Below are positions 1 through 61,850 of a stretch of DNA of 64,000 nucleotides, in pieces; position 1 is the first letter of the stretch; every line of letters begins with the position of its first letter. The stretch is from the NCBI GenBank assembly GCA_043228905.1, contig JBHGNT010000001.1, forward strand, positions 5,766,001-5,830,000, read 5' to 3'. The position numbers and the translations under genes were made by a program. The notes under the pieces were generated by a model, which was given only the letters and a program-made list of their open reading frames with translations, ran no database searches and was not told where the DNA came from. This DNA is from Azolla caroliniana. Its lineage: Eukaryota > Plantae > Polypodiophyta.

Positions 1-1608
1 CGGGTCTACGACGGATGAGGTGCGTAATACGAAGTATGCACTACGGCGTAAAACGGAGCAGGCACTACGGCCAGCGAAGGGCCAAGAAGTAAGCATGCAC
101 CCGGAAGAGCGGCAACGAGTGACCGACAACGATGGACCTGTCGAGCCTTTGAGAGACAAGCACGCGGCGAGAGATGAAGCCGTAAGGTGCCGAGATCGGC
201 GGATGGGTGGCGAGAGTGAAGGATGGTGCGCGGAGAACAACGGGGTACACACCGGGAAGAGAAAACGCAGCGGCTTCCCGGAGGACATACAAGGCCAAGC
301 GGGCCAAGAGGGCGCAAGCCGAGGCGAGGCGGTAATGAGAGCCTCGAGGGACACCGACACGGAGGTCGGGAGGACGGTACGCTCTACGGTGAGAGAGCAC
401 GACGGGCAAAGGAGAGGCAAGGAACGCGGAATGGGGTCGCCTAAGGGCCAAAGAATGAGCGCATATTCGGGGGACAACATCGGCGCACGAGAAGAGCCCA
501 TGGAAGGCAAGCGCGGAGCAGGAAGAGTCGACACGCCGAGGTGTTCGGCATGCGGAGACGATAAAACCAAAGGAGGAACATACGCGGCACGAAAAGGGCG
601 GAATCCGGAGTACGATCGGAGAGTTCAGGAGCGCACCCGGAGGACATACGAGCCTTTGCGAGGAATGCGCGCGGCGAGAGATGGAGCGGTGAGGTGCCGG
701 TATCGGCGGATGATCGACGAGCGTGAAAGGCTATGTCTTGAGAACCGGAGGAGGTGCGTGGAGAGCAACGGGCTACGCGCCGGGAAGAGGAAGCACGACT
801 TCCCGGAAGGCATGCGAGGCCAAGCGGGCCAAGAGGACGAGAGTCAGGATGAAGCGGTAACGGGAGTCGCGAAGGACATTGACATGGTGGTCGGGATGAC
901 GGTACGCTCTACGGCAAGAGAGCACGACGAGCAAGGGAGAAGCAAGGAGCGCGTAATGGGGTCACGTAAGGACCGAAGAACGAGCACGCATTTGATGGAC
1001 GACAACGACGCACGGAAAGTGCCTACGGAAGCCGAGTGCAGAACGAAGGGAGTCGGTACGAGGTGTTCGGGGCGAGGAGAAGGTCGAGCCGGAGGTGGAA
1101 CACACGCGATACGCGAGGAGCGGCACCCGACGAGCAATCGAAGTAATCGGGGGTCTAACCGGAGGACATGCGCGGTGAGCGAAGGAAGGGAGACAGGATC
1201 GGCAACGGTGTTCGGGATGGCCAGTCGAAGAAGAAGGTGCGTGCGCTGGACGTGGTGGATCGGATGGAGCTGGCGGGTCGGGGCCGGTAAGGAGCTGGCA
1301 AGACGGATCGGCTCCGGCAAGGGACCGGCAAGAAGGTTGGGTGCTGGTAAGGCGAAAGACCCGGTTGATCACCGTGGCCGAAATCTCTCACCCTTTTCCC
1401 TTCTTGGCACATACCGGTGGATGTGCAGTTTGGTGGGGGTGGATGTCGTGAAGATTTTCGTCCATAGGCGGAAACCGGGGTGGAAGGGGCAAGTCGGTGG
1501 TGTGCAACATGTGCACATGTATACTAGGATATGGTGTATAGAGAGAGAAGGGGAAATTTTTGTCCCAGTTTGTAAGGTCCCTCCCTCCTTGGGCTATAAA
1601 AGGAAGGG
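1..1608 (+). mobile_element. 3' end of a tRNA-Trp-type Ty3/Gypsy element: GC-rich 3' region with a ~507-bp tandem duplication, PPT-like tract and a truncated 3' LTR (1444-~1608)
   Basis: 1378-1460 matches the pre-LTR motif and LTR start (TGTCGTGAAGATTTTCG) at 14408-14487; repeat units start near 142 and 649; the LTR breaks off just after TATAAAAGGAAGGGGA. Confidence 0.75.
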
Positions 1609-4889: not shown

Positions 4890-5135
4890 TGTCGCGTTGT
4901 TACGCGTGTGCGTGGAGAACGAGGCGGGACCACGGGGCCTTGGACCGAGAAATAACCGAATGAGAAGAGGGGAAGGAAACTACCAACGTAATCCGCACGC
5001 GCATGGACACACAGATTCGCAAGAGTTGCAACTAACTCCGAACAATGGGGACAAAATGAATGTAAGTGTATATATATATCAAGGAGTTACAACCAGCAAG
5101 CCGGCAAGTGAAAGGCTCCAACGCCTGCACACACA

Positions 5136-5181
<46 letters not shown>

Positions 5182-5538
5182 ACACGACATGGAAACTCTA
5201 CCAGAAGCACTCGGACGTTCCGCGGAGCAGAGTCAGCCTCCAGAAAACCTGCACAGAACGATTATCGAGAAGAGAGAGGAGAAGAGCTCAGTTCCAGCAC
5301 GGCAGCACCTCGTCCTCCCCAAAACGCGATCCCCCCCCTTTCTTTTTTTAATACCTCTCCCTCTCCTTTATAGCCCAAGGAGGGAGGCCGTTACCACCTG
5401 TTACATCATGTTTATTCCCTGTCCTTTCGGACATGGATATGCCTCGATTCTCCCCCTACTAAATGCGTGCTACCTAGGATTTCACCTCAGCAGATTTGTA
5501 CCTACCTACGTACTATACAACAAAACTTGTGCCCACGT

Positions 5539-6240
5539 TGTCGTAGTGTATTCCACACACTACGTGAAAACCATAAAATAATATATCCGATTTTAGATAC
5601 ATATAAATAAATAAATAATATATCAAAATATTTATCACGTGCATAAGGGCAAGATTTGAACCCTATACCTCCACGTAGCCAAACCTCAACTTTACCATTA
5701 TGCTACCTTATCTTTAGTGTTCTATAAATAGATTTAATAACTATAAGTGCTTTATTTGCGCCTACCTTTATTAAAAGGTAAATCATGCATTTTCAGAGTG
5801 CGTGAATATTTTATTGAAAAACGCAAGCAACTAAAAAGTGACTCATGCACATCTAGCGTGCATGAGCACTATATTTAGCAAATAAAAGCAAGGATTAGAA
5901 AAGCATCACATGCACATTTAGTGTGCATGAACATATTAGAAAAAACCATGTAGCTATGCTTAGTCTCTCCCATCACTATATAAGGATGGGGAGCACATTG
6001 TAGTTTTTGTTGATTATTTTTCTATAATGATCAATCAATCTAAAATATTCGTGGGATTCACGAATTTGCTAAAACAATTCTCTCTTACTACCTAAATATT
6101 GACTAAATATACCAAACTCGTGGGATTCACAAGATTCTTATCTTATAACTCTTTATACCTATTCTTTACTAGCCTTATTTGTATTTTTCTTCCTCCTAGT
6201 CCAAAACCTCGACGGTTCCCACCCGACTCACGCAACGATC
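5539..6240 (+). mobile_element. Truncated AT-rich LTR of a related family inserted into the 4890 LTR
   Basis: Starts TGTCGTAG after ACGT; architecture and U5-like motif (CCAAAACCTCGACGGTTCCC) parallel the 7615 LTR; fused to gag by a deletion. Confidence 0.7.
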
Positions 6241-6244
6241 CGGA

Positions 6245-7540
6245 GCCGAAACGCCTCTTCCTCTTCACCAAGTCTACGATGGAGTCGTGGAACTTCTTGG
6301 CGATTCTGAGCACCTCCCGCAACGACAGTTCTACCTTGCTGTCGAGGATTCATTTTTCTAGGACCTTTCGTAGGTCCGTGGTCCTTTCGATCTCTGTGCC
6401 CAACCGGTATCCGCCCTTCTTGTGGTTATCCCGGGCACTGGTCTCACCGGCCTCGTTCCGTTTCGGCCCGAATCGGGTTTCGTATCTTTGTGAGGGTCCG
6501 GCCCCTCCGGTTTTACCTACCAGTTTGTCTTCTACCAGAGCCTCGTAATTCTGGCAAGCCGTTTCGACGAAACCCGTCTTTTCTTCGACCGGGTCATTCC
6601 ACCCGGTTACCTCCTGGACCCGCTTCTCCACGCGGTCCGCCTCGTCTTTCTTTAGTCGGGCACCGGCAAGGCCTTCCAGCACCGTCGGCCAGAACCCGGC
6701 TTTGCTCTCCTTCCGGGCCTCGCTGCCTCCGACCCGAATACCGGTTGACGCTGAATAGTGGACAGTCTCCGCGTGTCGGGCCGCCGCCTCTTCCATCAGC
6801 ATTTTCATTCCTCCTCGCCCGTCGTTTCGGTTTAGGGCCCTCCGAGTATCGCTGGTGTGCACCCGACCTTCCCACAGGTACACTACCTGGCTTCTCAAAG
6901 CCTCCGCAAAGTCCCCGCAATCTTTCCGGATGTGGCCGACCTCGTCGCACCACATGCACCTATTTCCTGCCGGAGGCCGTCGGTCACGAGCCTGTTCGTC
7001 GCCTTCCCTCTGAGCCTGGGCGATCTGGAGATCCTTTACCGCCCGTGTCAACTCCTCCAAAGTTGTTCCCCCGGACGAGCCTCTGACCACGCTTGTCGAA
7101 GCCCTCCCTATTGAATGCGTGCTACCTAGGATTTCACCTCAGCCGACTTGTACCTACCTACTTACTATGCAACAAAAGGCGTGCTCGCGTGTAAGGGCCG
7201 ATTTACACATGCTAAACTCGGTTTCCACCTAGGGACGGTTTTCTTCACGACACCGTATTTTTCAAGGAGCCGACCTTCAAACTCTTCCCTGGTCCGACTC
7301 TTAGCCCGTACCTCAAGCATCTCCGCATGGATGCCCGGGATCGCCACCCGAGGGAACCCGGCCAGCCGCCTGTCCTCCGGGATGTCCCTCATCACCATTT
7401 CGGCTAGCTCGTGGCGTCCTTCCCACCGAACTGGCCTATCGTGTCGACGACTGCCTCAATAGCCTTAGCGAGGGCGCCTGTGCCTTTGCGCGCACTCACT
7501 ATCCGATCCATAGCCGAAGCCATGGCTTCTGCAAGATCCA
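6245..7540 (-). pseudogene. gag: Gag remnants with CCHC knuckle (CMWCDEVGHIRKDC), interrupted by an LTR fragment at 7105-7252
   Basis: ORF 6350-7090 is homologous to the 8846 gag; N-terminal piece at 7253-7540. Confidence 0.85.
7105..7252 (-). mobile_element. LTR fragment (same family as the 4890/16325 LTRs) inserted in gag
   Basis: Matches about 16175-16325; ends ...CTTCACGACA followed by CCGT. Confidence 0.8.
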
Positions 7541-7999
7541 ACCCTCTCATCTTTCTATTCCTCTACCGCCTGTTCACGTCGGGTTCACCAAATATGTCGC
7601 GTTGTTATGTGCGTTGTCGTGAAGATTTTCGGCAATAGTGTGAAAATCCCATAAAACGTACGAAATCGAGTATGAATCACATAGTACAATAATTGTGAAG
7701 ATAACATTTTAAATAGATTTAATATCTAAGTACAAAATGATGGAGGTTTCGAATGCACTTTATTACACGAGAAACGGACAACTAAATGTCAAGATATGAG
7801 GGTATAAAGTTTGTGAAAGGAAAAGAGAAAATTGTGAGATATCCCACATAGGCACGACAAATACAGCTCTCATCATATATAAGGTGGAGCAAAAGATATT
7901 ATCTTTGTGTCTATGTGTGAAGCATAGAGAGTTCAAAGTAACTTGAACTAAGAGTGGAGGTGGACTAGCTACTCGTAAAAGGTTTTGGCCAACCAAAAC

Positions 8000-8236
8000 C
8001 GGACCGGCGATGGAGCCGGTGAGGCACCGGTAACCGACGGCAACCGGCGAGGCACCGGTATCCGACGGCATCCGGCGAGGCACCGGTATCCGGCGGCATC
8101 TGGCGAACGACACTAGTAACCGACGGCATCCGGCGAGGCACCGGTAACCGACGACATCCGGCGAGGCACCGGTAACTGACGACATCCGGCGACGGCACCA
8201 GTAACCGACGGCATCCGGCGAACCGGCGTCCGACGA
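8000..8236. repeat. GC-rich ~25-28-bp tandem array (CCGGCGAGGCACCGGTAACCGACGGCAT) inside the LTR; second copy at about 14853-15085
   Basis: Direct inspection; unit order differs between the two LTRs. Confidence 0.9.
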
Positions 8237-8295
8237 CTAGATAAATAAATATATAAATATATAAATATATATACATATTTACATATACAAGGAGG

Positions 8296-8361
8296 GCAAG
8301 TAAGGATTCGAACCTCGCACCTCCAAGTTAGGAGTCAATTGGCTTACCATTAAGCCATGCT
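8296..8361 (-). promoter_or_regulatory. tRNA-like Pol III cassette (A box TGGCTTAATGG, B box GGTTCGAATCC) in the LTR; identical copy at about 15151-15216
   Basis: Near-consensus boxes 32 nt apart, with a tRNA-like variable-loop and T-arm sequence. Confidence 0.65.
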
Positions 8362-8845
8362 ATTTAGTTGAAATTACATTTCTATCATTGTACTTTTACA
8401 TGTAAATTCTCATACATGAGAGCTAAAATGAGTGACATGGTTATCATGCACCACATGTAATACTTAAGCGCCAAATGGCAAACATGCAATTTATGCATGT
8501 CTTGTACCCTCACATGCATCATATGCATGAGAGCATCTATAAAAGAGGGAAGGGGGAGGAAAAAAAGACGGGTTTTTTTTATGAAAATTAAGAGGAAGAA
8601 ATTCGTTATCAAATTGATCATGTAACTTGTTTCTTAAATCTAAAGTTAAAAGTTCAATCAATCTCTCTCAATCGTGTAATCTCAACTTCTCTCTTTCCTA
8701 ATCTATCTTAATTACTTTCTCGCTAAAGCTTGCGCTAAAGCTTGTACCAACTTTGAATCCTTCTGGTCCAGAACCCCGGCGGTTCCGCCTCACGATCCGC
8801 GCGTAATGACGGATCTTCACGACATAATTAAGTGGTGAACCCGAC

Positions 8846-10921
8846 GTGAAAGAGGCGGTAGGAAGGAACGTTACGAAGTTCCTTGATGCATATAGAAGGG
8901 AGATGAATCAGAGGGACATGTCCGAGGCACGTCAAATCGCAAGCTTCAAGAGAGTTGTCGCCAACAACATCCAAAGACGCGTCATCGAGCTTCAAGAAGG
9001 TAAGACAACATGGTCCGAGTTCGAGAAAACGATACTAGCGGAGTTCGTGACTGAAGACTCAACGAGGATGACTCGACATGCCCTGATGAAGTGGATAGAG
9101 AAGAAGAATAAGAAGATGAGCGTCTCGAGGGTGTACGACGAATTCGACCAGATGTTTAGTCGTCTCCCCAATACGGACCAAGTGTTGCTTGAAGAGGACA
9201 AGACTTTGTACTTCTTGCAGGCCGTGGACATAAAGGATAGACGGGAGTTGGGGACTCTTCTCGAAGATGATACCCAAGCAAATGGGCTCGTAGCGGACTG
9301 GATCGCGGTGAAGCGGGCATGCAATAGGCTCGACAAGCGTCGCCAATGGGTTGATGACACCGACTTGACGGGATCGACTACCACGGAGAAAGCAAGACCG
9401 CCGAAAGTAGCTGAGCCGCCAAGACAAAGTAACGTGGAAGAAAAGAAGATTGATGACGACATCATTGAAGAGCTAGCGAAGAAGTTCGAGAAGGTCACGC
9501 TAGCCAACATGAATCGTCGGGGCCCTAAAGGAAAAGAACCCTTTAGATGCGTGTGGTGCGATAGCATGGACCACATGAGAAGGGATTGTGCAAGCCTTCG
9601 AGAGGCGATTCGACAAAATATCGTATACATAGAGGACAACATGATCTGCTCAAGCGAGACTAGAAGACCCCTACGGGTGAATTTCGGAAGAGGAGGAATG
9701 AAGAGATCTATGGAGTATGCCGATGCGACTCATGTGGATGCGATGCACTATGCTGCGTCGGCCGGAATAAGAGTCGGGAAAGACAAGACTGAAGCTGCTA
9801 GAGCGGGAGCAAAGTTTTGGACTTCTGTTCTCGAATATGAGAAGAAGGGAAAAATCACATCGAACGAGGTAGAGCTTGCGGACCGAAGCGGGCAAAGCAT
9901 AACCGGGTGGTCGGATCCGGTGGACGACAACACCATACTCGCAGAGGTGATGTGCAACAACCACGAGGTGTTCGTCGAAGAAAAGAGAAAGAGAATAGAA
10001 GAGCAAGGCCCATCTAAAAGACATGAAACAAGGAACGCGAAAAAGAAGGACGATGCGGAGACGAGTCAACCTTTACAATCGGAGGAACGAGAATCAAGCC
10101 GAAAAGGGGAGCCGAGCATACGAGTTGAAGAAACAGTGCGGCCTGTGAAGGTTGGTGTCGAAGACCCCGCTCGGAGGACAAGAACTATACCTACCTATAA
10201 GCTAAGGTCGGACATAGAGCAGACGACGGACCTAAAGAAGATTCTCGAAGAACGAGTTCTTGATAGCCACGTAACTTTGTCCTTGAGGGAATTGCTTGGC
10301 ATTACGAAGAAGGAGTTCCATGACACGATCGTGGACCTTGTAAAGAGAAAGAGACAACAATCGGACGAGGAAGAAGAGAAGCCGCAAAAAGCAAAAAGGA
10401 ATGCCATAACGATGGCAAGAGACGAAATCGATGAAGATATGGTGGACAGCCACTACACTCGACCTCATTGGGCACGAGCGACAACGGAGACGCCGGTGAA
10501 GATCAGGGAGAAGAAAGAGACCGTGGTAGCCTTGATCGACCACGGCTCGGAGATCAACCTCATGTCAACCGACTTCTACAAAAAAGGAAGATGGCCAATC
10601 AATACAAAACACGGATGGAAGATTCGCGCGGCAACAAAGTCTACGGAGGATTTGTACGGAGCTTGTCCCAATGTCAGAGTCACGATCGGGGATGTGGAGA
10701 TGGAACAACACTTCTTCGTACAATAATCGGCGTCGCATCCTGTCATCCTAGGGCAACCTTATATCACATCATCTCGGATGGAGACCAGAGTGTTCGATAA
10801 TGGAGCAGCCTTCGCACGAATAAAGAGTCTTGAAAACCAAAGATCGGTCCAATTCCTAACGGTGCGAGCCAATCATGAAAGGAATCGAGATAGTCTCGGA
10901 GGCGAATCCTCGGATTTTTAG
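8846..10921 (+). pseudogene. gag: Gag-protease ORF (CCHC knuckle, aspartic protease LIDHGSEIN); premature stop at 10724; N-terminus deleted relative to sister gags
   Basis: Frame continues past 10726 (HPVILGQPY...) to GAT TTT TAG at 10913-10921; no ATG after the PBS. Confidence 0.9.
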
Positions 10922-13900
10922 AGCGGACTATTGAAGCATGGGGCACAAATAGTCCGAGCAATCACAAGACCCCACAAGAAAGAAGAGTGCGTGGATTGCA
11001 AGGAGAAGCAACATGTGTCACACCTAGTGGCGCATGTAAACTAGTACTATCCGACAAGAAGCACAAGCGCCGGATACAAGAATTCGAGAAGATGCTGAAA
11101 GAAGAGAACATAATAGAAGAAGGAGAGTTCGTGACTCATATTATGGAAGAAGCCTCATTTAACGACACCAGCGACGAAATCGAGGACGTCGTGGACTTGA
11201 GCTATCTTCACAACTAACGCGTGATTTCGGTTAACTCCGTCAACATGTACGCTATCATCGATGAATACCGTCGTGGCATCTCGATGAAGGAAGCTGACAT
11301 CAACACGAAATATAAAACGGTGGATAAGAAGATCAAGCCAGTTGCGGTTCCGCTACCGGAAGATAGCTGGCAAAAGATGAAGGAAGTCGCTAACGATCCA
11401 AGCTTAAGAGATCCGAAGAAGATAGGTCATGTCTTCACCAAAGAGACGAAGGGGAAGCTACGAGTTGGAAAGGAGAATTTCCTTCTCCCTAAAGAGGAGC
11501 GAATATTTCGCAATATGCTTGAGAGACATGGGAAGGCTTTCGCATTCTTCCCACGAGAAATCGGATGCGCCGACCCAAAGGTTATAGAGCCGATGGTGAT
11601 CTTCACGGTGCCTCATGTTCCTTGGAATTTGAAACCGATACCGGTACCGAGAGCACACCTTCCGAAGCTGATCGAGCTCTTAAAGGAGAAGGTGAGTATG
11701 GGAATTCTAGAACCGTCGAATGCTCCTTATTCCAATAGGTGGTTCACGGTGCCGAAGAAGAATGGATCATTGCGATTCATCCAAGATCTTCAACCCGTCA
11801 ACAAGGTGACAATTCGAAATGCCGGTATCGGTCCGAGCGTGGACGAATTTGCCGAAGCGTTTGCGGGCCGGTCCATCTACTCCATTGGCGATCTCTACTC
11901 CGGATATGACCAATTCCAATTGGCGATCGACAGTCGGGACATTACAACCATGAGGACTCCGATCGGGCTTTTGCGGATGTGTACCTTACCCCAAGGCGCA
12001 ACGAACTCGGTGGCTCATATGGTGAATGCCATGAATAAAGTCTTGAAGGATTGCATTCCGGACATCACGATGCCATTCTTGGATGATATTCCGATAAAAG
12101 GATGTTCGGATGAGGAGAAAGATGAATCGAAAGATAAGGAAGGTTGTAGAAAGTTTGTTGTGGATCATATGAAAGATTGCGAGAAGGTGCTTCAAAGGCT
12201 CGAAGATGCGAATTTGACATTTTCGGGAGAAAAATCCGCATTTGGGCAACCGGAGATCTTGGTGGTAGGTCACTTGTGTGGAGCATACGGCCGGAAGCCC
12301 TCACCATCCAAAGTGAACGCAATCCAAGACATGAAAGAAGAATGCGAAAACCAAACGGAGTTTTGAAGGTTCCTTGGAGCGTGCGCGTTTTATCATATAT
12401 GGATTCCTCACTACGCTCATGTCGCCGAACCGTTATATGGACTACTAAAGAAAAGAATAAAGTTCGAATGGCGAGACGAGCACACAGCGAAGATTAAAGA
12501 AACTGCTTCTTGAAGCTCCAACACTCAGGAAGGTTGACTATGCCGAAGGGAAGCCAATTTACGTGACCGTAGATATGAGCCCAACCGGAATCGGGTGGGT
12601 CATCAATCAAGAAGGTGAAGATAATGCGCGATATGCCGTCCGGTTCGGAGCAAAGGTTCTCAGCGAACGGCAACAAAGATATGCCCAAGTCAAGCGGGAA
12701 CTTTGGGGTATTGTGTCGGCAGTGAAGACGGACAAAGATTACCTGATTGGGTCAGAAGTGATAATAGAGACAGATTGTCTCCCAATTCTCTGAATGGTCT
12801 CGGGATGTGCGACCCCAGATCTTGCTATGCTAAGGTGGATCGCCTACATCAAGTCTTTAAACCCAGAGATCCGTCACATTGCAGGGAAGAAGAACGCCAT
12901 GGCTGACATGCTGTCGAGGGCAAGATTTTCAAACGGAAGTAACATGGTTTCGGAAGATGAAGATGTCGCCCTCGACTTCTTCAAGATGGCTCGATTGTCG
13001 GCGGAAGACCAGGACACACAAACCCTCCACGCCTTCGACGAGAACGAGTACGAAGGAGAGTGGTTACTCATCGGTAGATTCCTAAGAACATTGACGACAT
13101 ATGCTTCGTTGACAAAGGAGGAGGCCCTACGAATCCGAAAGAAAGCTTACCGATACTTCTTGAAGGGAGGATTCCTTTGGCGACATCCAAAAAGAAGGAC
13201 AGGAATACCACGATGAGTGGTGGTAAAGAAAGAAGATCAAGAGACGTTGATGACCGAATTCCACGAGAGTGCTTGGGCAGGTCATAGAGGAACATGAGCG
13301 ACGTTCGAAAAGTTGAAGGAGAAGTACTGGTGGCCAAGCATGTACAAAGATGTACTCCATTTCGTGTCCACATGCGAAACTTGCCAAATATATTCAAATA
13401 TACGTCATCGTGATGAGTTAAAGCCGACATACCCACTCACCATACACTTCAAATGGATGGTGGATCTGGTCTCGATGCCAATGGGAGTGGGACAAATGAA
13501 GTACTTAGCGCTGGCAAGGGAAGACTTGACAAATCAAGTGGAAGGACGAGCCTTGAAAAATAAGACGACTTCAGCTGTTTGTAAATTTTTACTTGAAGAT
13601 GTTGTTTGCCGATATGGATGTGTAGGGAAGATAGTGGCCGACTGAGGGGAGTTGGACGCGCACGAAGCGACAGAGCTCTTCGAAAGACTAGGCGTGAAGC
13701 TCTCCCTCACGACTGCCTACAATCCAGAAGCAAATGGGAAGATCGAGCGAGGGCATGGACCTATCGTTAAAGCCATCGTACGGGCATGCAACGGTCGAGT
13801 CGGGAATTGGCCATGACTATTACCCTATGCCTTGTGGGCCGATAGAACGACACATAGCTCGGTGACAGGGTATATGCCAACGGAGCTTATGTATGGACAA

Positions 13901-14398
13901 AAGCCGATTATGCCCATCGAAAGGACGATCGCCTCATGGGTAGCGATACCGTGGGAGAACGAGATGAGCCGAGAAGAGTTATTAGCGGCGCGGATAAGGC
14001 AACTTGAAAGAAGACCTGAAGATTTAGAAAAAGCGCGAAAGATGATGAAGGCAGCCCGAGTAAGGAACAAAGTTCGGTTCGACAACACGCATCGACTTCG
14101 TCCCAAGAAGATTGAAGAAGGGGATTGGGTTTTGGTTTACGACGGCACCCTTGACAATCAACACAGTACAACAAGGAAGTTCGCAAGAAGATGGTTCGGG
14201 CCGTATGTGGTGACAAGTGCCAACGATAATGCCACATACCACCTTGCGGAACTAGACGGATCAAGGTTGGTCGTACCCATTGCGGGAAAAAGAGTAAAGC
14301 TTTTCAAGAAAAGACAAGACAAGGATCCTGACCTCGATTACCTCGACGATGAACATAATAGGCCGGATGAAAATGAAGACATGGAGGAATCTAATTGA
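10918..14398 (+). pseudogene. pol: Pol (RT with FLDD, RNase H, integrase) starting in the -1 frame; several stops and a frameshift near 12490
   Basis: LPQGATNS, PFLDDIP, TVDMSPTGIG, HESAWAGH...CETC, WFGPY motifs; several stops are consistent with CGA>TGA or TGG>TGA changes. Confidence 0.92.
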
Positions 14399-16325
14399 TC
14401 ATCGTAGCCGAAATCTCACTTCTTCTCTTCTTGGCACGTACCGGAGGACGTGCAGTTTGGTGGGGATGGATGTCGTGAAGATTTTCGGCAATAGTGTGAA
14501 AATCCCATAAAACGTACGAAATCGAGTATGAATCACATAGTACAATAATTGTGAAGATAACATTTTAAATAGATTTAATATCTAAGTACAAAATGATGGA
14601 GGTTTCGAATGCACTTTATTACACGAGAAACGGACAACTAAATGTCAAGATATGAGGGTATAAAGTTTGTGAAAGGAAAAGAGAAAATTGTGAGATATCC
14701 CACATAGGCACAACAAATACAGCTCTCATCATATATAAGGTGGAGCAAAAGATATTATCTTTGTGTCTATGTGTGGAGCATAGAGAGTTCAAGGTAACTT
14801 GAACTAAGAGTGGAGGTGGGCTAGCTACTTGTAAAAGGTTTTGGCCAACCAAACCGGACCGGCGATGGAGCCGGTGATCCGGCGAGGCATCGGTAACCGA
14901 CGGCAACCGGCGACGGCATCCAGCGAGGCACCGGTAACCGACGACATCCGACGAGGCACCGGTATCCAGCAGCATCCGGCGAACAGCACCGGTATCCGGC
15001 AACGGCATCCGGCGAGGCACCGGTAAACGACGGCATCCGGCGACGGCACCAGTAACCGACGGACGGCATCCGGCGAACCGGCGTCTGACGACTAGATAAA
15101 TAAATATATAAATATATAAATATATATACATATTTACATATACAAGGAGGGCAAGTAAGGATTCGAACCTCGCACCTCCAAGTTAGGAGTCAATTGGCTT
15201 ACCATTAAGCCATGCTATTTAGTTGAAATTATATTTTATCATTGTACTTTTACATGTAAATTCTCATACATGAGAGCTAAAATGAGTGACATGGTTATCA
15301 TGCACCACATGTAATACTTAAGCGCCAAATGGCAAACATGCAATTTATGCATGTCTTGTACCCTCACATGCATCATATGCATGAGAGCATCTATAAAAGA
15401 GGGAAGGGGGAGGAAAAAAAGACGGGTTTTTTTTATGAAAATTAAGAGGAAGAAATTCGTTATCAAATTGATCATGTAACTTGTTTCTTAAATCTAAAGT
15501 TAAAAGTTCAATCAATCTCTCTCAATCGTGTAATCTCAACTTCTCTCTTTCCCAATCTATCTTAAGTACTTTCTCGCTAAAGCTTGCGCTAAACCTTGTA
15601 CCAACTTTGAATCCTTCCGGTCCAGAACCCCGGCGGTTCTGCCTCACGATCCGCGCGTAGTGACGGATCTTCACGACAGCGTGCGTGGAGAACGAGGCGG
15701 GACCACGAGGGCCTTGGACTGAGAAATAACCGAATGAGAAGAGGGGAAGGAAACTACCAACGTAATCCGCACGCGCACGGACACACAGATTCGCAAGAGT
15801 TGCAACTAACTCCGAACAATGGGGACAGAATGAATGTAAGTGTATATATATATATCAAGGAGTTACAACCGGCAAGCCGGCGAGTGAAAGGCTCCGACGC
15901 CTGCACACACACACACACAAAACGCGAGATGGAGACTCTGCCGGAAGCACTTGGGCGTTCTGCGGAGCAGAGTCAGCCTCCCGAAAACCTGCACAGAACG
16001 ATTATCGAGAAGACAGAGGAGAAGAGCTCGGTTCTAGCCCGGCAACACCTCGTCCTCTACAAAACGCGATCCCCCCCCTTTCTTTTTTTAATACCTCTCC
16101 CTCTCTTTTATAGCCCAAGGAGGGAGGCCGTTACCACCCCTTACATCATGAAAGGACAGGGATACACCTTGATTCTCCCCCTACTGAATGTGTGCTACCT
16201 AGGATTTCGCCTCAGCCGATTTGTACCTACCTACATACTATACAACAAAACTTGTGCCCACGTGTAAGGGCCGGTTTACGCACGCTATACCCAGTTTCCG
16301 CCTAGGGACGGTTTTCTCCATGACA

Positions 16326-17177
16326 ACGGTTTTGTAGACCTTTTCAAGTCCTCAAACACATTGGTTCATTAGCCATCATCTCACTCTTCCCGATGGCGTT
16401 GAAATTCATCCAGTTTTTCATGTAAGTCGTCTAAAAGAACTTCTAGGTCCTGGCGAGAATACAGTTACAACCTAAACTCTGGTTACTTCTGAAGAATTAT
16501 CTTCTAAACCACATGTACTAGAATGAATTCTCAATGTTAAAACAAAAAATCTGCGTACTAAAATAATCCGAGAATTTAAAATTAAATGAATAGATAAATC
16601 TATCAAAGATGCCACATGGGAACGCGAAAATACTCTTAGAACTAACTTCCCTAACTTTCCATTGCAAGAGTACAATGTTTTACAGAGGGGGAGTATGTTA
16701 CGGGCATGACCATATAATATCCCGTGGTGAGAATTTACCGTAGTATTATATACACGTGGATAAGTGTGAGGGTTAAACGAGAGTGTAAAGAAGGGGATGA
16801 TTACTTTTAATCCTTGGGATTGAGACAACCCATTAGGCCAAGTGTGAACTTGCTTGGGGGCCTTGGGTCTCACAATAAATATGAGGTCTAGCTACCCTCA
16901 TTTCATCATCTCTTGACTATGTCGAGACTCTGTTTCGTGGTGGGTCAACTCTTGTAGCGAGCACGCCAGCACCAGGTACGACTCGACGCCACGACGATGG
17001 TATGGGACGTCAATCGAGGCTCGAGTCCATCTCGATCCCTTCACTCGGGGGCGGTGGGGAGGATCGACACCCTTCTTTCTCTCTCTCCTTTCTTATTTCA
17101 TATATAGTATATCCTTATCATATGCTTACATTAGATCATCACTCTTAACGCTTACTATGTCAAAATAGAGCATTACA
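16326..17177 (+). mobile_element. Chromovirus 3' end: integrase GPY/F region, chromodomain, PPT, 3' LTR about 16696-17177
   Basis: EIHPVFHVS; EFKIK*IDKSIKDATWERE chromodomain; AGAGGGGGAG followed by TGTTAC; LTR right end tentative. Confidence 0.75.
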
Positions 17178-39101: not shown

Positions 39102-42100
39102 TGTCAAGAAGAGAGAAAAAGAGAAGAAAGAGAGAGAAAAAAGGGAAAGAGATACATTGATGAGGCAGAAAGAGAGAATTGAAAAGAAAGTATTGTATTG
39201 CGATATAAGATGGAGTACACAGAATAGGCAATAGGGAGCTATAGGATGGCGTTGAACCAATTTGGTTCTTGGATGGTTGATAGTTCCTTATTTATAACTC
39301 TCTATAGAGTAATCTAGAACACTCTAGAATATTCTGGGGTAATCTAGTAATCTAGAAGGTTTATAGAGTATTCTAGAAGGTTCTAGCGTATAGAACACTC
39401 TAGAATACTCTAGGACATTCTAGAATATAAAGTAATTCAGAATTTCCTTATGATATTAGATTATATATTCTAAAAACAATAAGCATAAACTTGTTATTAC
39501 AATGGTTGAGGATTTGACATGTGTATAACAGGGTTGTGGTGACCATGTCCGCGACATTGGAAAGATTTGCAGCAGGTTCCCAAGTTCGATCGTTGGGGGT
39601 ATAGCCTAGCCAATCAACGAAATAATACAACTTGTTGCGCACGATTTTAGAACCGAGAATGGCGGCAACCTTAAATTCGGGTCCTTCCAAGAACTCAACT
39701 GGTGGCTGAGGAGCCAAAATACGGCCCGTAATTGAACTGTTGGTGTAAGGTTCTAATAGGGATACGTGGAAGACCGGATGGAGGCGCATGTGTGGAGGGA
39801 GGACAAGACGATATGCAACATCACTTATCTTACCAGTGAACATGTATGGGCCAAAATGTTGGTAATCCAATTTACCACAAGACCGAGTAGTCTTGATGTT
39901 GTGTTGGAGAAGCCATGCACGATCCCCAACACAGAATTTTTTGGAGGAATCGAGGCGATGACGATCCGCAAGCCTCTTGTGTGTAATTTGTGCATCATGT
40001 AAATTGTGAAGAATGGAAACGTGAATTTCTTGGAGGCGACTAAGACGATCCGCAACAGCAGGGTTAGTAGGCACTTGTGGATGTGCATTCATTGTCCACC
40101 GAGGATGGTGGCCCGTATTTGCGAAAAATGGGGAATAACCCATATGGACCGAGTTGTTGTAAGCGAATTTAGCCAAGTGCAGAAAATCAACCCAATCATC
40201 TTGTTGGTAGTTGATGAAACAACGAAGATATTGCTCCAATGTCTGGTTGGTACGCTCAGTTTGGCCGTTAGTCTCAGGATGATAGCCCGAAGAAAGCTTA
40301 GCTGAAATTCGGAGAAGTTTGAGGATATGCTTCCAAAACTTGGAAATAAATTGTGGACCCCGATCACTAATAATATCATCTGGAAGACCATGGTGCTTAA
40401 ATACCTCCCGCATAACTAGATCGACCACCTCTTGACTAGTAATAGACTTCGTACATGGCACGAAATGTCCCATTTTGGTAAGTCGATCAACCACTGTGAG
40501 AATTGCATCATAACCTTTTGAAACTGGGAGATCGGTAATGAAATCCAAGGATATAGACTTCCAAGGATTTTCCGGAATGGGAAGTGGTTGTAGTAAGCCA
40601 TAGGATCGGTGTCAAGGACTCTTTGATCGACAACAGGTATCAGAACTGCGAACATACTCCTCAACAAAATGACGAAGGCGAGGCCACCAATATTGTCGAG
40701 AAACTAATTCTAGAGTTTTGCGAACTCCAAAATGTCCAGTCATTGGTGAGTCATGGCAATGTTGTAGAACTTGTAGTCGTGGGGGACCATCAGGAGCATA
40801 CAATAGGTTTTGTCGAAATAGAAAACCACCATGCCAATAGAACAAACGATAGTCATGTTGAGGGTTTTTCGACTACGAACTAGAAGCACGATCTGGGACA
40901 ATATGATCCAAAACCTCCTTGGTAAATTCATCAGTGGCCATATGATCTCGAATGGAATCAAGAAGAGTGGAATCTTCAAGTGTTGTTATGGCATTAACTA
41001 CCATTAATCGTAGGCAATTAGGACCCAAAAGGATTTGTTTTTGATGCTCAAATGCAAGTTCCCCTGGACGAAGTTCCATATAAGAGCGTCGAGAAATCGT
41101 GTCTGATTTACCTTGTTGCATCCCAGGGCGATATATGATTACAAAGTCAAAGTGACTCAAAAATTGTGCCCACCGGGCTTGTCACTGACTCAATACTTGA
41201 GCATTTTGGAAATATGTCAAGTTCTTATGATCATTGTAGACAATGATCTGCTGAGAAGAGTCTTCTAGAAAACGTCGCCATTATAGATAAAAGTCCACGA
41301 TTGCAAGAAGTTCTTTGTCATGGATCTCGTAGTTGATCTCTGCAGTTTCAAATTTCCGGGAATGAAAGGCGATAGGATGTAGCTCTCCGTCATCTCCAGT
41401 CTGCGACAAGACACTTCCTAGTGCAAAATCGGATGCATCAGCTTCAAGGATGAAGCGTTTTGTTGGGTCGACATGTGCTAAGATCGGTGTCGTTGTAAAC
41501 GCCTGTTTTAAACTTTCAAATGCCTCGGCTGCATCCGAACTCCAAATGAATGGTTGATTTTTGTGTGTGAGTTGAGTGAGCGAAAGCACGACCTTAGAAT
41601 AATGTTTAATAAATTTCCGATAAAAATTTGCAAACCCGAGAAAACATTGCACGTCGCACACTGAAAGGGGAGTTTGCCACTCTAGAATTGCTTGAACCTT
41701 CATGGGGTCCATAGAAATACCATTTGAGGATACAACGTACCCCAAAAATTCCACTTGATTCTGGCCAAAACTACAGTTCTCTAATTTTGCATAGAGACCA
41801 TATTCTCGTAGCCGACGTAGTACCTGACAAACATGTTCATCATGTTCCTCTTGGGTCTTCGAATAGATCAAAATGTCATCTAGGTAAACTATAGTGAAGA
41901 CATCGAGAAAATCTCAAAAAATATCATTCACCATATGCTAGAAAACTGCAGGTGCATTCGTGAGACCGAATGGCATCGCAATATACTCGAAATGTCCATA
42001 GCGAGTGCGAAAAGCAGTCTTCCATTCATCCCCCGGACGAATCTGAACTAGATTATATGCACCACGAAGGTCCAACTTCGTGAAATATTTTGCTCCACTA

Positions 42101-44211
42101 AGACGTTCCAAAAGATTCGGGATTAACGGTAAAGCATATCGATTCCGGATGGTCACTTTGTTTAGCCCTCGATAATCCACGACCAACCTAAGAGACCCAT
42201 TCTTTTTCTTAACGAAGAAGATAGGTGCACCAGCAGGGGATCTAGAATGCCGAATGAATCCATTTGCGAGATTCTCGTCGATATATTCCCGCAAAGTCTC
42301 TAGCTCTACAGGGGAAAGATTATAAATTGGGCCCCATGGAGGTTCTAAACAAGAGTTGGCTCCAGAATCTAGGAGGGTAGAGGCTAGGACTCGATGACAT
42401 GTAGATGTGGTAAGCTCAACTTGCGTAGAAAAAACTCTACTCACTTGACTTGATAAAATGGAACCACGACTAGGGACTAACTCTACATATCTAGGATGGT
42501 CCAACCAAATGGCTCCTATTTTGGCCGGACTTACTCATTTAACACATCCTCTAATTGACTCAAGACGTCGAACCTATTCTCATGGCATGGACTATTAGGC
42601 TTATTGACATTACTAGAAGTAACAATGGAGCTCAAAGTAGGAATATCATGTGCACTTAATTGGTATACTTGACGTCTAGGTTTATGTGGACAATTCACGA
42701 CTATATGTCTTGGACCACCGTAATATAAACATAGGCAATGCGCCCGACGTCGTTGTTTCTCAGCATCAGATAAAGGCCCTCAACGTTGAGTTGTCTCTAT
42801 TTCCATCAGAGTTGGGCCATCCCTTGTAACGGGTCTGGAAACTTGTGGGGGCATTGCGATTACGGAAGCATACGTTTGTTCTGGTTGGTGGCGTGACATT
42901 TGTTGGCGCTCAGAACGTCGCTCAAAAAGACGATTATCACATCGCACAACTCAACTAATGGCCTCTGTTAGAGACTTCGGATCTTCATGGAAAGTAAGTA
43001 GAAGATCTTTGATGTCATTACGCAAAACTTGACGGAATTGATCCATTAAAGCCGCCTCATCGCAAGGGATATCGCATGCCAAAAGGCGAAAATCAGTTGT
43101 ATACGCTCATGCAGGACGATCTCCTTGCCGGAGTCTTCGAATCTTGTTTATCGTCGTCCTAGTGCTGTCGGTGTCTCCAAAACTAGCCTGAAACTCCTTA
43201 ACAAATGCCTCAAAATCGTCTAGCAATGGTGATTTCTTCTCAAGAAGTGGTGCAAACCATGCTAATGTTGTACCACATAACAAGGTTCCTACTAATCCCA
43301 CACGGGCCATGTCAGTTGGGTACCGATTGGGATGTAACTGAATAACCAAACAGACTTGATTCAAAAAACCTCGAAATAAAGACCTCATACCATCAAATTT
43401 GGCAGGGAGACTAATCTTTGGTTCTCGAGGGGAGTTTTGAGCCCCCGACGCTTGTTCCCGTAATGACAATATAGTAGCCTCGAGTTGGTGAACCCGTTGT
43501 GATAATTCTTCAACTTGTTGAGCTCTTTCGGTACTCACTTGTTGTAGGTCGCCCAATAGCCTTTGATTTTCATGCTCTAATGCCACAAATTTATTCATGA
43601 GCATGTCGAGCTCAGAGAGAACACAGATATATTCTTGTTTGCTCACGAACTCCATGATGAACGAGGGGAGAGGAGAAGAAATAAGAGAACTTGTGGAAGA
43701 GGGAGAAAATGAAGAAAAATTGGTTCAAACTGTCAAGACAAAGAGAAAAAGAGAAGAAAGAGAGAGAAAAAAGGGAAAGAGATATATTGATGAAGCAGAA
43801 AGAGAGAATTGAAAAGAAAGTATTGTATTGCGATATAAGATGGAGTACACAAAATAGGCAATAGGGAGCTATAGGATGGCGTTGAACTAATTTGGTGCTT
43901 GGATGGTTGATAGCTCCTTATTTATAACTCTCTATAGAGTAATCTAGAACACTCTAGAATATTCTGGGGTAATCTAGTAATCTAGAAGGTTTATAGAGTA
44001 TTCTAGAAGGTTCTAGCGTATAGAACACTCTAGAATACTCTAGGACATTCTAGAATATAAAGTAATTCAGAATATCCTTATGATATTAGATTATATATTC
44101 CAAAAACAATACGTATAAACTTGTTATTACAATGGTTAAGGATTTCACATGCGTATAACAAGGTTGTGAGTTCAATTCCTTTCGAGACAAAATATGAGTG
44201 TCGTCATGACA
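39102..44211 (-). mobile_element. Tcn1-like chromovirus (Ty3/Gypsy), degenerate. 5' LTR 43731-44211; 3' LTR 39102-~39538 truncated on its inner side
   Basis: Gag (PAKFDG), partly deleted PR (LLDSGA), RT, RH ([10 protein letters not shown]), INT, chromodomain (YFVDWLGYTPNDRTWEP); flanks GATAT/AATAT; no tRNA PBS. Confidence 0.92.
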
Positions 44212-45412: not shown

Positions 45413-47163
45413 TGTCATGGACACACCAACCGCAGACTCGGAAAAAGCATGGATGATGGGGCTAAGAGCGTGGAACTTAAGAAGTTGGGAACGACACAAA
45501 AGCATGAAGACAAAGATGAAGAACGAGACAAGATGGAATGGAACAAGAATACTAGATTGATATGTTAATGACTAGTGTTGAATTCCTTCCAACTGGAAGC
45601 ATCACCCGTTTTCGTCGCCGCCCTTGCTTCTAAAGTTACCATCATCACCATCCTTGCTTCTAGAGTTACTGGCATCAACATCCTTGTCTTCAACATCATC
45701 ATTTTCAGCACCTCTTTGCCCAACCTTCATCTTCATCAACACTACTTTTCATGGTCTTTCATTATCATCATTGTTCTACCCTCTTCATTGGCATTGTCAT
45801 AATCCATAGGTATCATTTTGCATCATGATTTTGGTGAGGATTGATTTCGATCTCTCACCTTCATAGTTCTAGTGGGGGTTACAACCACTCACTTTCGTGG
45901 TGGGGATCGAAACTCCACTTTCCTTTGACGAGGATCGATTTTCATCGCTCACCTTCTAGTTCCAGTGGGGGTCAAAACCGCTCACTTTCCTGGTGGGGAT
46001 CATGTCGGTTTCTTGCTAGTGCTACTGTTTGTGCTGTGTTTTGGGTCAACCTTGACTATTTACCCTCTCATGATAGAAGAATTCAAGTCGACCGCTTCAC
46101 TTGTACTACTTCGCTCGTTGTTGTTCTAGTTCCCCGTGAGGGCCGCACATGGTTGCTCACGCCCGTTGGTGTTCTAGTTCCTGGTTTAGGGCCACACATG
46201 GTCGCTCACACCCATTGGTATTCGTGTTTCGAGCAAGGACCGCACATGGTCGCTCATGCTTGTTGGTGTTCTAGTTCCCGGTGAGGATCGTACATGGTCG
46301 CTCACGTTTGTTGGTGTTTGTGTCTCCGGTGAGGACTACACATAGTCGTTCACATTCATTTGTGCTCCAATTCCCGCTCACCCCTACACCACGCTTTCGA
46401 AAAGGCAAGGGAGGATAATTTCATGACACAATGACATAAAATACATAGTTTGTGAGGATTGAACCTGCAACCTCACATCAACAAAATGTCATGCTCAAGC
46501 ATTTGGATATGAATATGTATTTGTATATAATATTTCAATATTATATAGTCTAGCATATATAGTACATTCCAGAATATTCTAGCCTAAGTTAGTATATTCT
46601 AGAAATATTCTATGGTGTATTCTAGACGGGTATATTCTAGAGATATTCAATGTCAGAACTTGTATAATACTTGTAACCTCCTTGTTCCCTTTCAAGGGAT
46701 TCAACACCAGTCATTGACATATCAATCTAGTACTGTCACTGACACACCAACAGCTGACCCAAACGGAGCACGGATGATGGGGCTAAGAGAGTGGAACTTA
46801 AGAAGCAGGGAACGACACAAGAGCATGAAGACAGAGATGAAGAACGTGACAAGATGGAATGGAACAAGAATATTAGATTGCTGTTTCAATGACTAGTGTT
46901 GAATCCCTTGAAAGGGACCAAGGAGGTTACAAGTATTTATAAAAGTTCTGAGATTGAATATCTCTAGAATATACCCGTCTAGAATACACCATAAAATATT
47001 TTTAGAATATTCTGGAATGTATTATATGCTAGACTATACAATACTGAACTATTATATACAAATACATGCTCATATCCAAATGGTTGAGCATGACATTTTG
47101 TCGACATGAGGTTGTAGGTTCAATCTTCACCAACTATGTATTTTATGTCACTAGGTCATGACA
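45413..47163 (-). mobile_element. Non-autonomous LTR element (TRIM-like) with an inverted internal segment
   Basis: TSD ATAGA; full LTR 46734-47163; LTR part 45413-45590 in the same orientation and LTR part 46420-46732 inverted and preceded by a PPT; ~50-bp tandem repeats 46110-46380; no recognisable coding domain. Confidence 0.8.
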
Positions 47164-61775: not shown

Positions 61776-61850
61776 GCACTTTTAGTTCAGTTAGGTAAGA
61801 CGTGGGTCTCCAAAAACCCGATGGTGTAGGTTTGAATCCTATAGGGAGTG
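61776..61850 (+). tRNA. trnW-CCA: Plastid-type tRNA-Trp(CCA) pseudogene, likely organelle-derived
   Basis: TTAGTTCAGTT.GGTA..ACGTGGGTCTCCAAAA(A)CCCGATG..GTAGGTT..AATCCTA resembles land-plant chloroplast trnW from memory; T-loop mutated and an extra A present. Confidence 0.75.

What the first reader, a model, noticed from the sequence alone, without database searches (positions are those of the whole stretch)
8296..8361. tRNA-derived Pol III cassette embedded antisense in Gypsy LTRs, recurring in four LTR families
Seen: the minus strand reads TGGCTTAATGG-32 nt-GGTTCGAATCC, with CTCCTAA (a CCT anticodon-loop-like string) and GGAGGTGCGA before the B box. It is identical in both LTRs (15159-15212), so it transposes as part of the element. 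Equivalent A-box/AGGT/B-box cassettes with 32-33 nt spacing occur at 5652-5705, 44125-44179 and 47073-47127, always antisense to the element. Established: Cassandra TRIMs carry 5S rRNA-derived Pol III promoters in their LTRs. Inference: a tRNA-based analogue shared by unrelated Gypsy lineages, acting as an antisense RNA source or a TFIIIC-type chromatin barrier. I do not know of a description of this.
Basis: partly seen in the sequence, partly recalled or inferred. Interest (0 to 1): 0.8.

Follow-up and report, generated by a model that had tools for sequence, protein, structure and literature searches.

The report
Backward tRNA promoters in Gypsy LTRs
Several families of protein-coding jumping genes in a non-seed plant carry, backwards inside their terminal repeats, a decayed tRNA gene with its internal promoter boxes, which is copied along with the element and likely serves as an optional shield for the element's own promoter, though it may be only a passenger.

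Summary
Element A (7615-15678) is a Phygy-type Gypsy (tRNA-Trp PBS, 4-bp NCGN TSD). Both LTRs carry an identical antisense tRNA relic (A box 8347-8357, B box 8304-8314), 181 bp upstream of the TATA box, without cloverleaf. The four families are two lineages (Phygy A/C; chromovirus D with E-like LTR). In 33 complete Gypsy LTRs (17 clusters) 5 clusters have an antisense cassette, 1 a sense one; A's closest sisters have none. A non-autonomous family shares A's cassette (78%) but no other U3 sequence. Function is unproven: across A copies the boxes vary as much as the flank (3/22 vs 16/71 sites) and about 30% lack B-box C56. Best reading: repeatedly captured tRNA/SINE head, likely an optional TFIIIC-bound U3 module (0.45); passenger 0.35. 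Closest known: Helenus/TRIMp3 (sense, non-autonomous), so the tRNA analogue of Cassandra is published; the antisense form in coding elements was not found in print. This scan noted similar antisense tRNA relics in Gypsy internal regions of other genomes.

The parts
8294..8357 (-). tRNA-derived cassette in 5' LTR of element A (tRNA positions 8-72): A box 8347-8357, anticodon-loop-like CTCCTAA 8328-8334, B box 8304-8314
   Evidence: no acceptor stem
15149..15212 (-). identical cassette in 3' LTR of element A
8240..8293 (-). AT-rich tract following the cassette (SINE-tail-like); part of the 105-nt island shared with L002
8004..8237 (.). GC-rich 28-bp tandem repeats in U3, downstream of the cassette on the minus strand
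7995..7998 (-). first T4 run after the B box (305 nt on; 322 nt in the 3' LTR): predicted Pol III stop
   Evidence: function inferred
8538..8544 (+). TATA-like TATAAAA of the LTR Pol II promoter, 181 bp from the A box, divergent
   Evidence: function inferred
7615..8824 (+). 5' LTR of element A (TG...CA, 10-bp terminal inverted repeat; TSD GCGT at 7611-7614)
8833..8850 (+). primer-binding site, tRNA-Trp type
   Evidence: Phygy PBS type from PMC6317226 supplement; the Trp label of this 18-mer is recalled
8828..14398 (+). gag (open, 632 aa) and pol (RT, RNase H, integrase; several stops and frameshifts in this copy)
14471..15678 (+). 3' LTR of element A (98% identical to 5' LTR outside the repeats: 381/390 and 576/584); TSD GCGT at 15679-15682
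5642..5705 (-). cassette in LTR C (Phygy-type LTR 5540-~6245, 3' end deleted); A box 272 bp from TATA; 6 of 7 acceptor pairs
44125..44179 (+). cassette in 5' LTR (43731-44211) of minus-strand chromovirus D; B box about 40 bp from the LTR's outer end, 199 bp from TATA
39494..39538 (+). A-box half of the cassette in D's truncated 3' LTR (39102-39538); B box, PPT and end of chromodomain deleted
47073..47127 (+). cassette in LTR E (46734-47163, minus-strand by its TATA; same TGTCATGAC start as D), 132 bp from TATA
46421..46732 (-). inverted partial copy of LTR E with its cassette (B box 46455-46465)

Best explanation
These LTRs carry a decayed, backward tRNA gene head with A and B boxes in U3 that is copied with the element, and it likely acts as an optional TFIIIC-binding module that would keep the Pol II promoter 130-270 bp downstream open or insulated. 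Shown: tRNA-like boxes and spacing, loss of the cloverleaf, fixation in both LTRs and in a very high-copy family, the same divergent geometry in Phygy and chromovirus LTRs, patchy distribution. Inferred: at least three separate captures (A/L002 type, C/L012 type, D/E type) from tRNA genes or SINE heads; spread of the A type between distant families by LTR recombination or template switching; TFIIIC binding in the few active master copies; a boundary or open-chromatin effect; backward orientation tolerated because Pol III then reads away from the Pol II promoter. It cannot drive the genomic RNA, which the TATA promoter would make.
For: Top-ranked tRNA-like sites lie in LTRs (6 of 7; LTRs are 15% of the window); no free-standing copy elsewhere in the window except one tRNA relic. 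5 of 17 Gypsy LTR clusters antisense, 0 of 2 copia. A box to TATA 181, 272, 199, 132 bp in A, C, D, E and 161-260 bp in L040, L053, L002, L012. A and L002 share only the cassette plus tail (105 nt, 76%, E 7e-14) and the first 56 nt of the LTR. A versus C: A-box region 9/13 and B box 9/11 but middle 7/20 (ascertained on the boxes). In family A the A box is invariant at 10 of 11 sites, its one variant fits the consensus, the four bases just 5' of it all vary, and a diverged subfamily leaves the alignment at 8357. A CAA triplet lies at -6 to -4 of the predicted start in A, L040, L053 (motif from PMC13578239 passages). TFIIIC barriers are established in yeast and tRNA insulators in animals (PMC9540200 passages).
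Against: Within family A variable sites are 3 of 22 in the boxes against 16 of 71 in the flank (Fisher p=0.55). B-box C56 is T in 29% and 31% of contig depth and in L053, a near relative with open gag; another LTR CpG decays about as much (38-40%), so most copies look methylated and unprotected. A's sisters L051, L069, L072 (starred gag clade) and the abundant B family lack the cassette. L077 and L012 have decayed boxes (L002 vs L077: cassette 50/68, flank 72/88), although these may just be old dead copies. Orientation bias is not significant (3 of 4 captures, p=0.63; 5 of 6 clusters, p=0.22). A sense cassette exists in U5 of L056/L043. No barrier function of tRNA genes in plants was found in the passages read.
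Confidence: 0.45

Rival explanations
1. Neutral passenger: SINE heads or tRNA pseudogenes fell into U3 of a few active elements, were homogenised into both LTRs by reverse transcription and amplified by hitch-hiking; backward inserts survive only because they are harmless.
For: No excess box conservation in family A and 30% loss of C56; patchy presence; decay in L077 and L012; AT-rich tail after the cassette; tRNA genes lie next to Phygy insertions in L057 and L035, a possible source.
Against: Same side and distance to TATA in all antisense cases; cassette persists between A and L002 where all other U3 sequence is unalignable; no free copies seen in the window or as mixed loose ends; no convincing TSD.
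Confidence: 0.35
2. Antisense small-RNA gene: Pol III makes an uncapped RNA of about 370 nt in A, complementary to the U3 part of the genomic RNA, that tunes the element's own silencing, by analogy with Pol III miRNA genes in foamy virus LTRs.
For: Boxes, upstream CAA and a T4 run 305 nt on in A; Pol III genes in LTRs of autonomous retroelements are proven for foamy viruses (PMC3993851 passages).
Against: Distance to the first T4 is 305, 322, 23, 83 and 13 nt in A5, A3, C, D, E: no shared product; the downstream sequence is not conserved between families; cassettes fold no better than shuffles (z 0 to -1.5).
Confidence: 0.1
3. tRNA-pairing element: because the cassette is backward, the genomic RNA carries the complement of a tRNA near its 3' end and could pair with the primer tRNA to help minus-strand transfer (precedents recalled, not read: HIV-1 U3/R tRNA-Lys3-like sequence, Ty3 bipartite PBS).
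For: Orientation and U3 position fit directly; from recall the plant cytosolic tRNA-Trp resembles cassette A in D loop and anticodon arm, which I could not test with a tool-supplied sequence.
Against: Cassette positions 59-72 match the primer's 3' end (from the PBS) at only 3-7 of 14 sites in 9 cassettes; D has no tRNA PBS; most Trp-primed families lack it; Kojima found no such complementarity in Helenus.
Confidence: 0.07
4. Helenus/Cassandra-like: the cassette is the promoter that makes the element's genomic RNA.
For: tRNA-derived boxes inside both LTRs.
Against: It is antisense, the element is 8064 bp and coding, and a TATA box lies downstream on the sense strand; Helenus is 311-1263 bp with sense cassettes in the 4 LTRs seen.
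Confidence: 0.02

Closest known systems
Helenus / TRIMp3 (Kojima 2024, PMC10886601; parts 1-4 of 6 of the text and supplement passages read)
   Same: tRNA-derived sequence with A and B boxes inside both LTRs, cloverleaf mostly lost, proposed origin by SINE insertion into an LTR, repeated independent births; one plant family (Selaginella). The paper remarks that 'not a few LTRs' in Repbase hold tRNA-like pieces but analyses only TRIMs under about 1 kb.
   Different: Here the cassette is antisense, sits beside a TATA promoter, and lies in 5-8 kb coding elements; Kojima argues autonomous elements must use Pol II. Orientation or antisense cases are not discussed there.
Cassandra TRIMs (10.1101/2023.07.14.548913, passages)
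   Same: Small-RNA-gene Pol III promoter carried in plant LTRs.
   Different: 5S type 1 promoter, replaces the Pol II promoter, non-coding element.
Foamy virus LTR Pol III miRNA genes (PMC3993851, passages)
   Same: A/B-box Pol III units inside the LTR of an autonomous retroelement, coexisting with Pol II.
   Different: Those make defined hairpin products with terminators and are proven by experiment; here a tRNA relic, antisense, no conserved product.
tDNA/TFIIIC barriers and SINE boundaries (PMC9540200 passages; PMC8136502 search listing only)
   Same: Proposed mode of action.
   Different: Shown in yeast and animals at host loci, not as a built-in part of a plant LTR.
Phygy (non-chromovirus) and Tcn1 (chromovirus) lineages (Neumann 2019, PMC6317226; passages and supplement rows)
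   Same: Element A fits Phygy; element D fits Tcn1 by chromodomain, 5-bp TSD and lack of tRNA PBS.
   Different: No LTR-internal tRNA-like sequence is mentioned in the passages read.

Membership tests
Helenus (TRIMp3) | tRNA-derived sequence with A and B boxes in the LTRs | tested here: met
Helenus (TRIMp3) | short non-coding element (311-1263 bp) | tested here: not met
   A is 8064 bp with gag-pol; D about 5.1 kb coding; L002 internal part about 1.95 kb with a 623-codon ORF
Helenus (TRIMp3) | cassette in sense orientation, able to transcribe the element | tested here: not met
   antisense in A, C, D, E, L002; sense in the 4 Helenus LTRs seen
Phygy (element A) | 4-bp NCGN target site duplication | tested here: met
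   GCGT; definition
Phygy (element A) | tRNA-Trp PBS, 7.7-10 kb, no chromodomain | tested here: met
   PBS 8833-8850 (Trp label recalled), 8064 bp, no chromodomain hit in the three A ORFs scanned
Phygy (element A) | RT/RH/INT groups with reference Phygy elements in a tree | not tested
   no REXdb references held; closest named RT hits are Riccia, Adiantum, Calypogeia proteins
Tcn1 chromovirus (element D) | chromodomain, 5-bp TSD, no tRNA PBS | tested here: met
   PF00385; GATAT/AATAT, one mismatch; no tRNA PBS; definition
Tcn1 chromovirus (element D) | placement in the Tcn1 clade by tree; self-priming duplex | tested here: inconclusive
   no tree built; a one-mismatch 10-nt complement of the post-LTR sequence was found in the LTR, not evaluated further
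functional tRNA gene | cloverleaf with acceptor stem | tested here: not met
   ARAGORN 0, Rfam no hit, 1 of 7 acceptor pairs in A
independent SINE insertion | own TSD and tail, free copies elsewhere | tested here: inconclusive
   AT-rich tail present; only 5-8 nt AT-rich direct repeats; no free copy in window or loci; no genome held
type 2 Pol III promoter / TFIIIC site | TFIIIC binding or Pol III transcript | not testable with these tools
   no raw RNA reads or ChIP available

The most novel reading that the evidence does not exclude
Coding Gypsy retrotransposons of two distant lineages have convergently domesticated host tRNA promoters as portable TFIIIC boundary elements, placed backwards just upstream of their own Pol II promoter to resist heterochromatin at each new insertion site, and families trade the module by LTR recombination.
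Probability: 0.3. Interest if true: 0.8.

Novelty: new variant of a known kind. Interest (0 to 1): 0.52.

Why it matters
If functional, it is a cis-acting anti-silencing device built into autonomous plant LTRs and a thousands-of-copies test bed for whether TFIIIC sites act as barriers in plants, a question the review passages I read leave open. It also shows the SINE/tRNA-into-LTR capture proposed as the birth step of Cassandra and Helenus occurring in coding elements, several times in one lineage of plants. If a passenger, it remains a source of spurious tRNA and SINE annotation.

Tried and rejected
No whole genome held, so no genome-wide census. ARAGORN and Rfam do not call the cassette. IMG/VR holds no Phygy PBS or RT match. 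Sequencing runs: no RNA holder listed; two runs guessed to be RNA each give one contig over the cassette at depth 6-8, which shows neither strand nor ends and is not used as evidence. One search showed only 40 of 168 variants and was not used for the conservation count; one search gave the full table. BLAST of the cassette against phages gave only E>=2 hits, several on tRNAs: no isotype assignment; the loop is CCT in A and L002, CTT in L040 and L053. Searches for a plant-type tRNA-Trp to test the pairing rival found none; papers on it were not held. The strong fold of the predicted 369-nt A transcript (-158.7 vs -125 +/- 5) comes from palindromic tandem repeats that my shuffle destroys; rejected as evidence. 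The 6-of-7 acceptor pairs in C is 1 of 8 cassettes tested and may be chance. PWM was trained on the cassettes and is circular; only searches are used for significance.

Full report
Setting. The window is repeat-rich plant DNA; no genome is held. Element A runs 7615-15678 with 1.2-kb LTRs, a GCGT duplication, a PBS at 8833-8850, an open 632-aa gag and a broken pol. Its RT's closest named relatives are from Riccia, Adiantum and Calypogeia. TSD, PBS and length fit Phygy as defined in Neumann 2019 (4 bp NCGN, tRNA-Trp 81%, 7656-9968 bp); that this 18-mer is the Trp PBS is recalled. LTR C (5540-~6245) is a truncated Phygy-type LTR. D (39102-44211, minus) has a chromodomain, a 5-bp TSD with one mismatch and no tRNA PBS, as in Tcn1. 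E (46734-47163) is an LTR with D-like termini and no coding part in the window. RT of A and D are 33% identical over 136 aa. The species was not determined.

The cassette. Read in tRNA numbering, A keeps positions 8-72: A box, a short D-hairpin, a CT-NNN-AA loop in register, the AGGT variable loop and the T loop, but only 1 of 7 acceptor pairs. ARAGORN and Rfam therefore miss it. To test tRNA-likeness without circularity I took 13 tRNAs (12 annotated phage tRNAs and one plant tRNA-Arg from L057; the three phage tRNAs hit by BLAST with the cassette and one long-arm Ser were left out, but the records were found with the cassette as query). Their HMM gives A 18.0 bits, E 1e-4, against at most 9.0 in 20 shuffles; C, D and inverted E fall within the shuffle range. 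Their two-box model puts A3, A5, D, the relic at 61776-61850, inverted E, C and E at 19.2-24.5 with the next site at 12.4; 0-10 of 100 shuffled windows reach each score, and the reversed window gave one 21.4. So A is solid alone, and C, D, E are credible as a set. Six of the seven sites lie in LTRs, which make up 15% of the window; as two or three independent events that is roughly p 0.02-0.004, ignoring amplification bias.

Distribution. For 27 I could place the LTR start (24 of the 25 listed, L075 dropped as unlike Phygy, plus L012, L052, L057 by eye). With six window Gypsy LTRs these form 17 clusters; scored with the tRNA-trained model, 5 clusters have an antisense site of 19 or more (A/L053, L002, C, D, E), 1 has a sense site (L056, 27.8, in U5, two tandem copies), 11 have neither, and 0 of 2 copia LTRs score (the cut-off was set after seeing the gap; L017/L018 score 15-18 in sense at a U5 motif common to Phygy LTRs). 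L040 is a further A-type carrier. L077 (sister of L002) and L012 (C-like) hold decayed cassettes at the homologous place. In a gag tree of 21 rows A and L053 sit in a starred clade (100/99) with L051, L069, L072, which lack the cassette. L002, a non-autonomous element with a 623-codon non-gag ORF, shares with A only the cassette plus AT tail (76% over 105 nt; 53/68 in the core) and the first 56 nt of the LTR. A/C versus D/E cassettes share no more than tRNA features. I infer at least three captures plus a sense one, and transfer of the A type between families. Whether these loci come from the same species as the window is not established. All antisense cassettes point away from a TATA-like box 132-272 bp off; in D and E the B box is 43-47 bp from the LTR's outer end.

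Conservation. Logan contigs show family A at very high copy number in two coded organisms. The full variant table for 8270-8455 (two DNA runs) gives sites varying at 1% or more: A box 1/11, B box 2/11, spacer 7/32, flank 16/71; boxes versus flank p=0.55. The A-box variant and one B-box variant fit the consensus; the other turns C56 to T in 29-31% of depth. It is a CpG, and the CpG at 7661-7662 decays at 38-40%, so post-insertion deamination suffices; L053 also carries it. These data cannot separate decay of dead copies from change in master lineages, so the test has low power, but it gives no support for selection. Loose ends at 8357 are homogeneous (agreement 0.73-0.75), unlike those at LTR ends (0.35), which points to a diverged subfamily rather than dispersed free SINE copies (105 loose-end rows not shown). 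L002 versus L077 is 50/68 in the cassette and 72/88 in the flank, with 11 versus 4 lineage-specific changes, compatible with L077 being an old copy.

Mechanism. The cassette cannot make the genomic RNA. Distances to the first T4 differ from 13 to 322 nt, so a shared RNA product is unlikely. Recurrent geometry and persistence of the module amid fast U3 turnover favour a DNA-level role, most simply TFIIIC binding that keeps the adjacent promoter open or bounded (0.45); patchiness, decay and the flat conservation profile favour a passenger (0.35). An antisense RNA (0.10) or pairing with the primer tRNA (0.07; cassette matches the primer's 3' end at 3-7 of 14 sites) are less likely. Every functional step is inferred.

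Literature. Helenus/TRIMp3 (PMC10886601; parts 1-4 of 6 and supplement passages read) already is the tRNA analogue of Cassandra, but short, non-coding and sense. Foamy viruses carry Pol III genes in LTRs (PMC3993851, passages). Passages were also read from PMC6317226, 10.64898/2026.03.01.708851 (46), 10.1101/2023.07.14.548913 (63), PMC13578239, PMC9540200. Searches returned no description of antisense tRNA cassettes in LTRs of coding plant Gypsy elements; the library lacks most subscription papers and Repbase, and bioRxiv supplements are closed, so this is not proof of absence. The HIV-1 and Ty3 precedents are recalled only. Earlier notes of this scan describe antisense tRNA relics in internal regions of Gypsy elements in other genomes; unchecked, and not used as support.

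Verdict. Real feature, new variant of a known kind, function unproven; interest 0.52.

Noticed in passing
window 61776-61850 (+): Degenerate tRNA (Rfam 34.8 bits, CCA-type loop), outside any LTR; looks like an organellar trnW relic (label recalled).
   Followed up: partly
L056 (364 and 213 bp upstream of PBS) and L043: Sense-oriented tRNA-like A/B cassettes, tandem, in U5 of another Phygy family; would be transcribed into the genomic RNA's 5' leader.
   Followed up: partly
L035, 870-1800 bp upstream of PBS: Tandem array (about 370-bp period) of degenerate initiator-tRNA-Met-like genes (label recalled) directly flanking a Phygy LTR.
   Followed up: partly
L057 1150-1224: Intact tRNA-Arg(CCG) about 200 bp outside a B-family LTR, divergent; with L035 a hint of insertion near tRNA genes (2 cases only).
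   Followed up: no
L002 whole; window 1-1467 similar: Non-autonomous Phygy derivative with a 623-codon low-complexity ORF and the 3' internal end of family A.
   Followed up: partly
window ~8765-8790 and U5 of most Phygy loci: Conserved U5 motif about 65 nt before the PBS that resembles a sense B box in some families (L017, L018 score 15-18).
   Followed up: no
window 46421-47163: LTR E fused head-to-tail with an inverted partial copy, forming a 740-bp imperfect palindrome, next to 48-bp tandem repeats and two further LTR 3' fragments.
   Followed up: no
window 4890-16326: Nested Phygy cluster: A inserted in one LTR of minus-strand element B, C in the other, F and G upstream; insertions at NCGN sites inside other Phygy LTRs.
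   Followed up: partly
L009, L027, L032, L066, L075, L089: AT-rich elements with the same PBS but TGTAAACA LTR ends, probably from other organisms; L032 and L075 have strong tRNA-like hits about 2-2.5 kb upstream.
   Followed up: no
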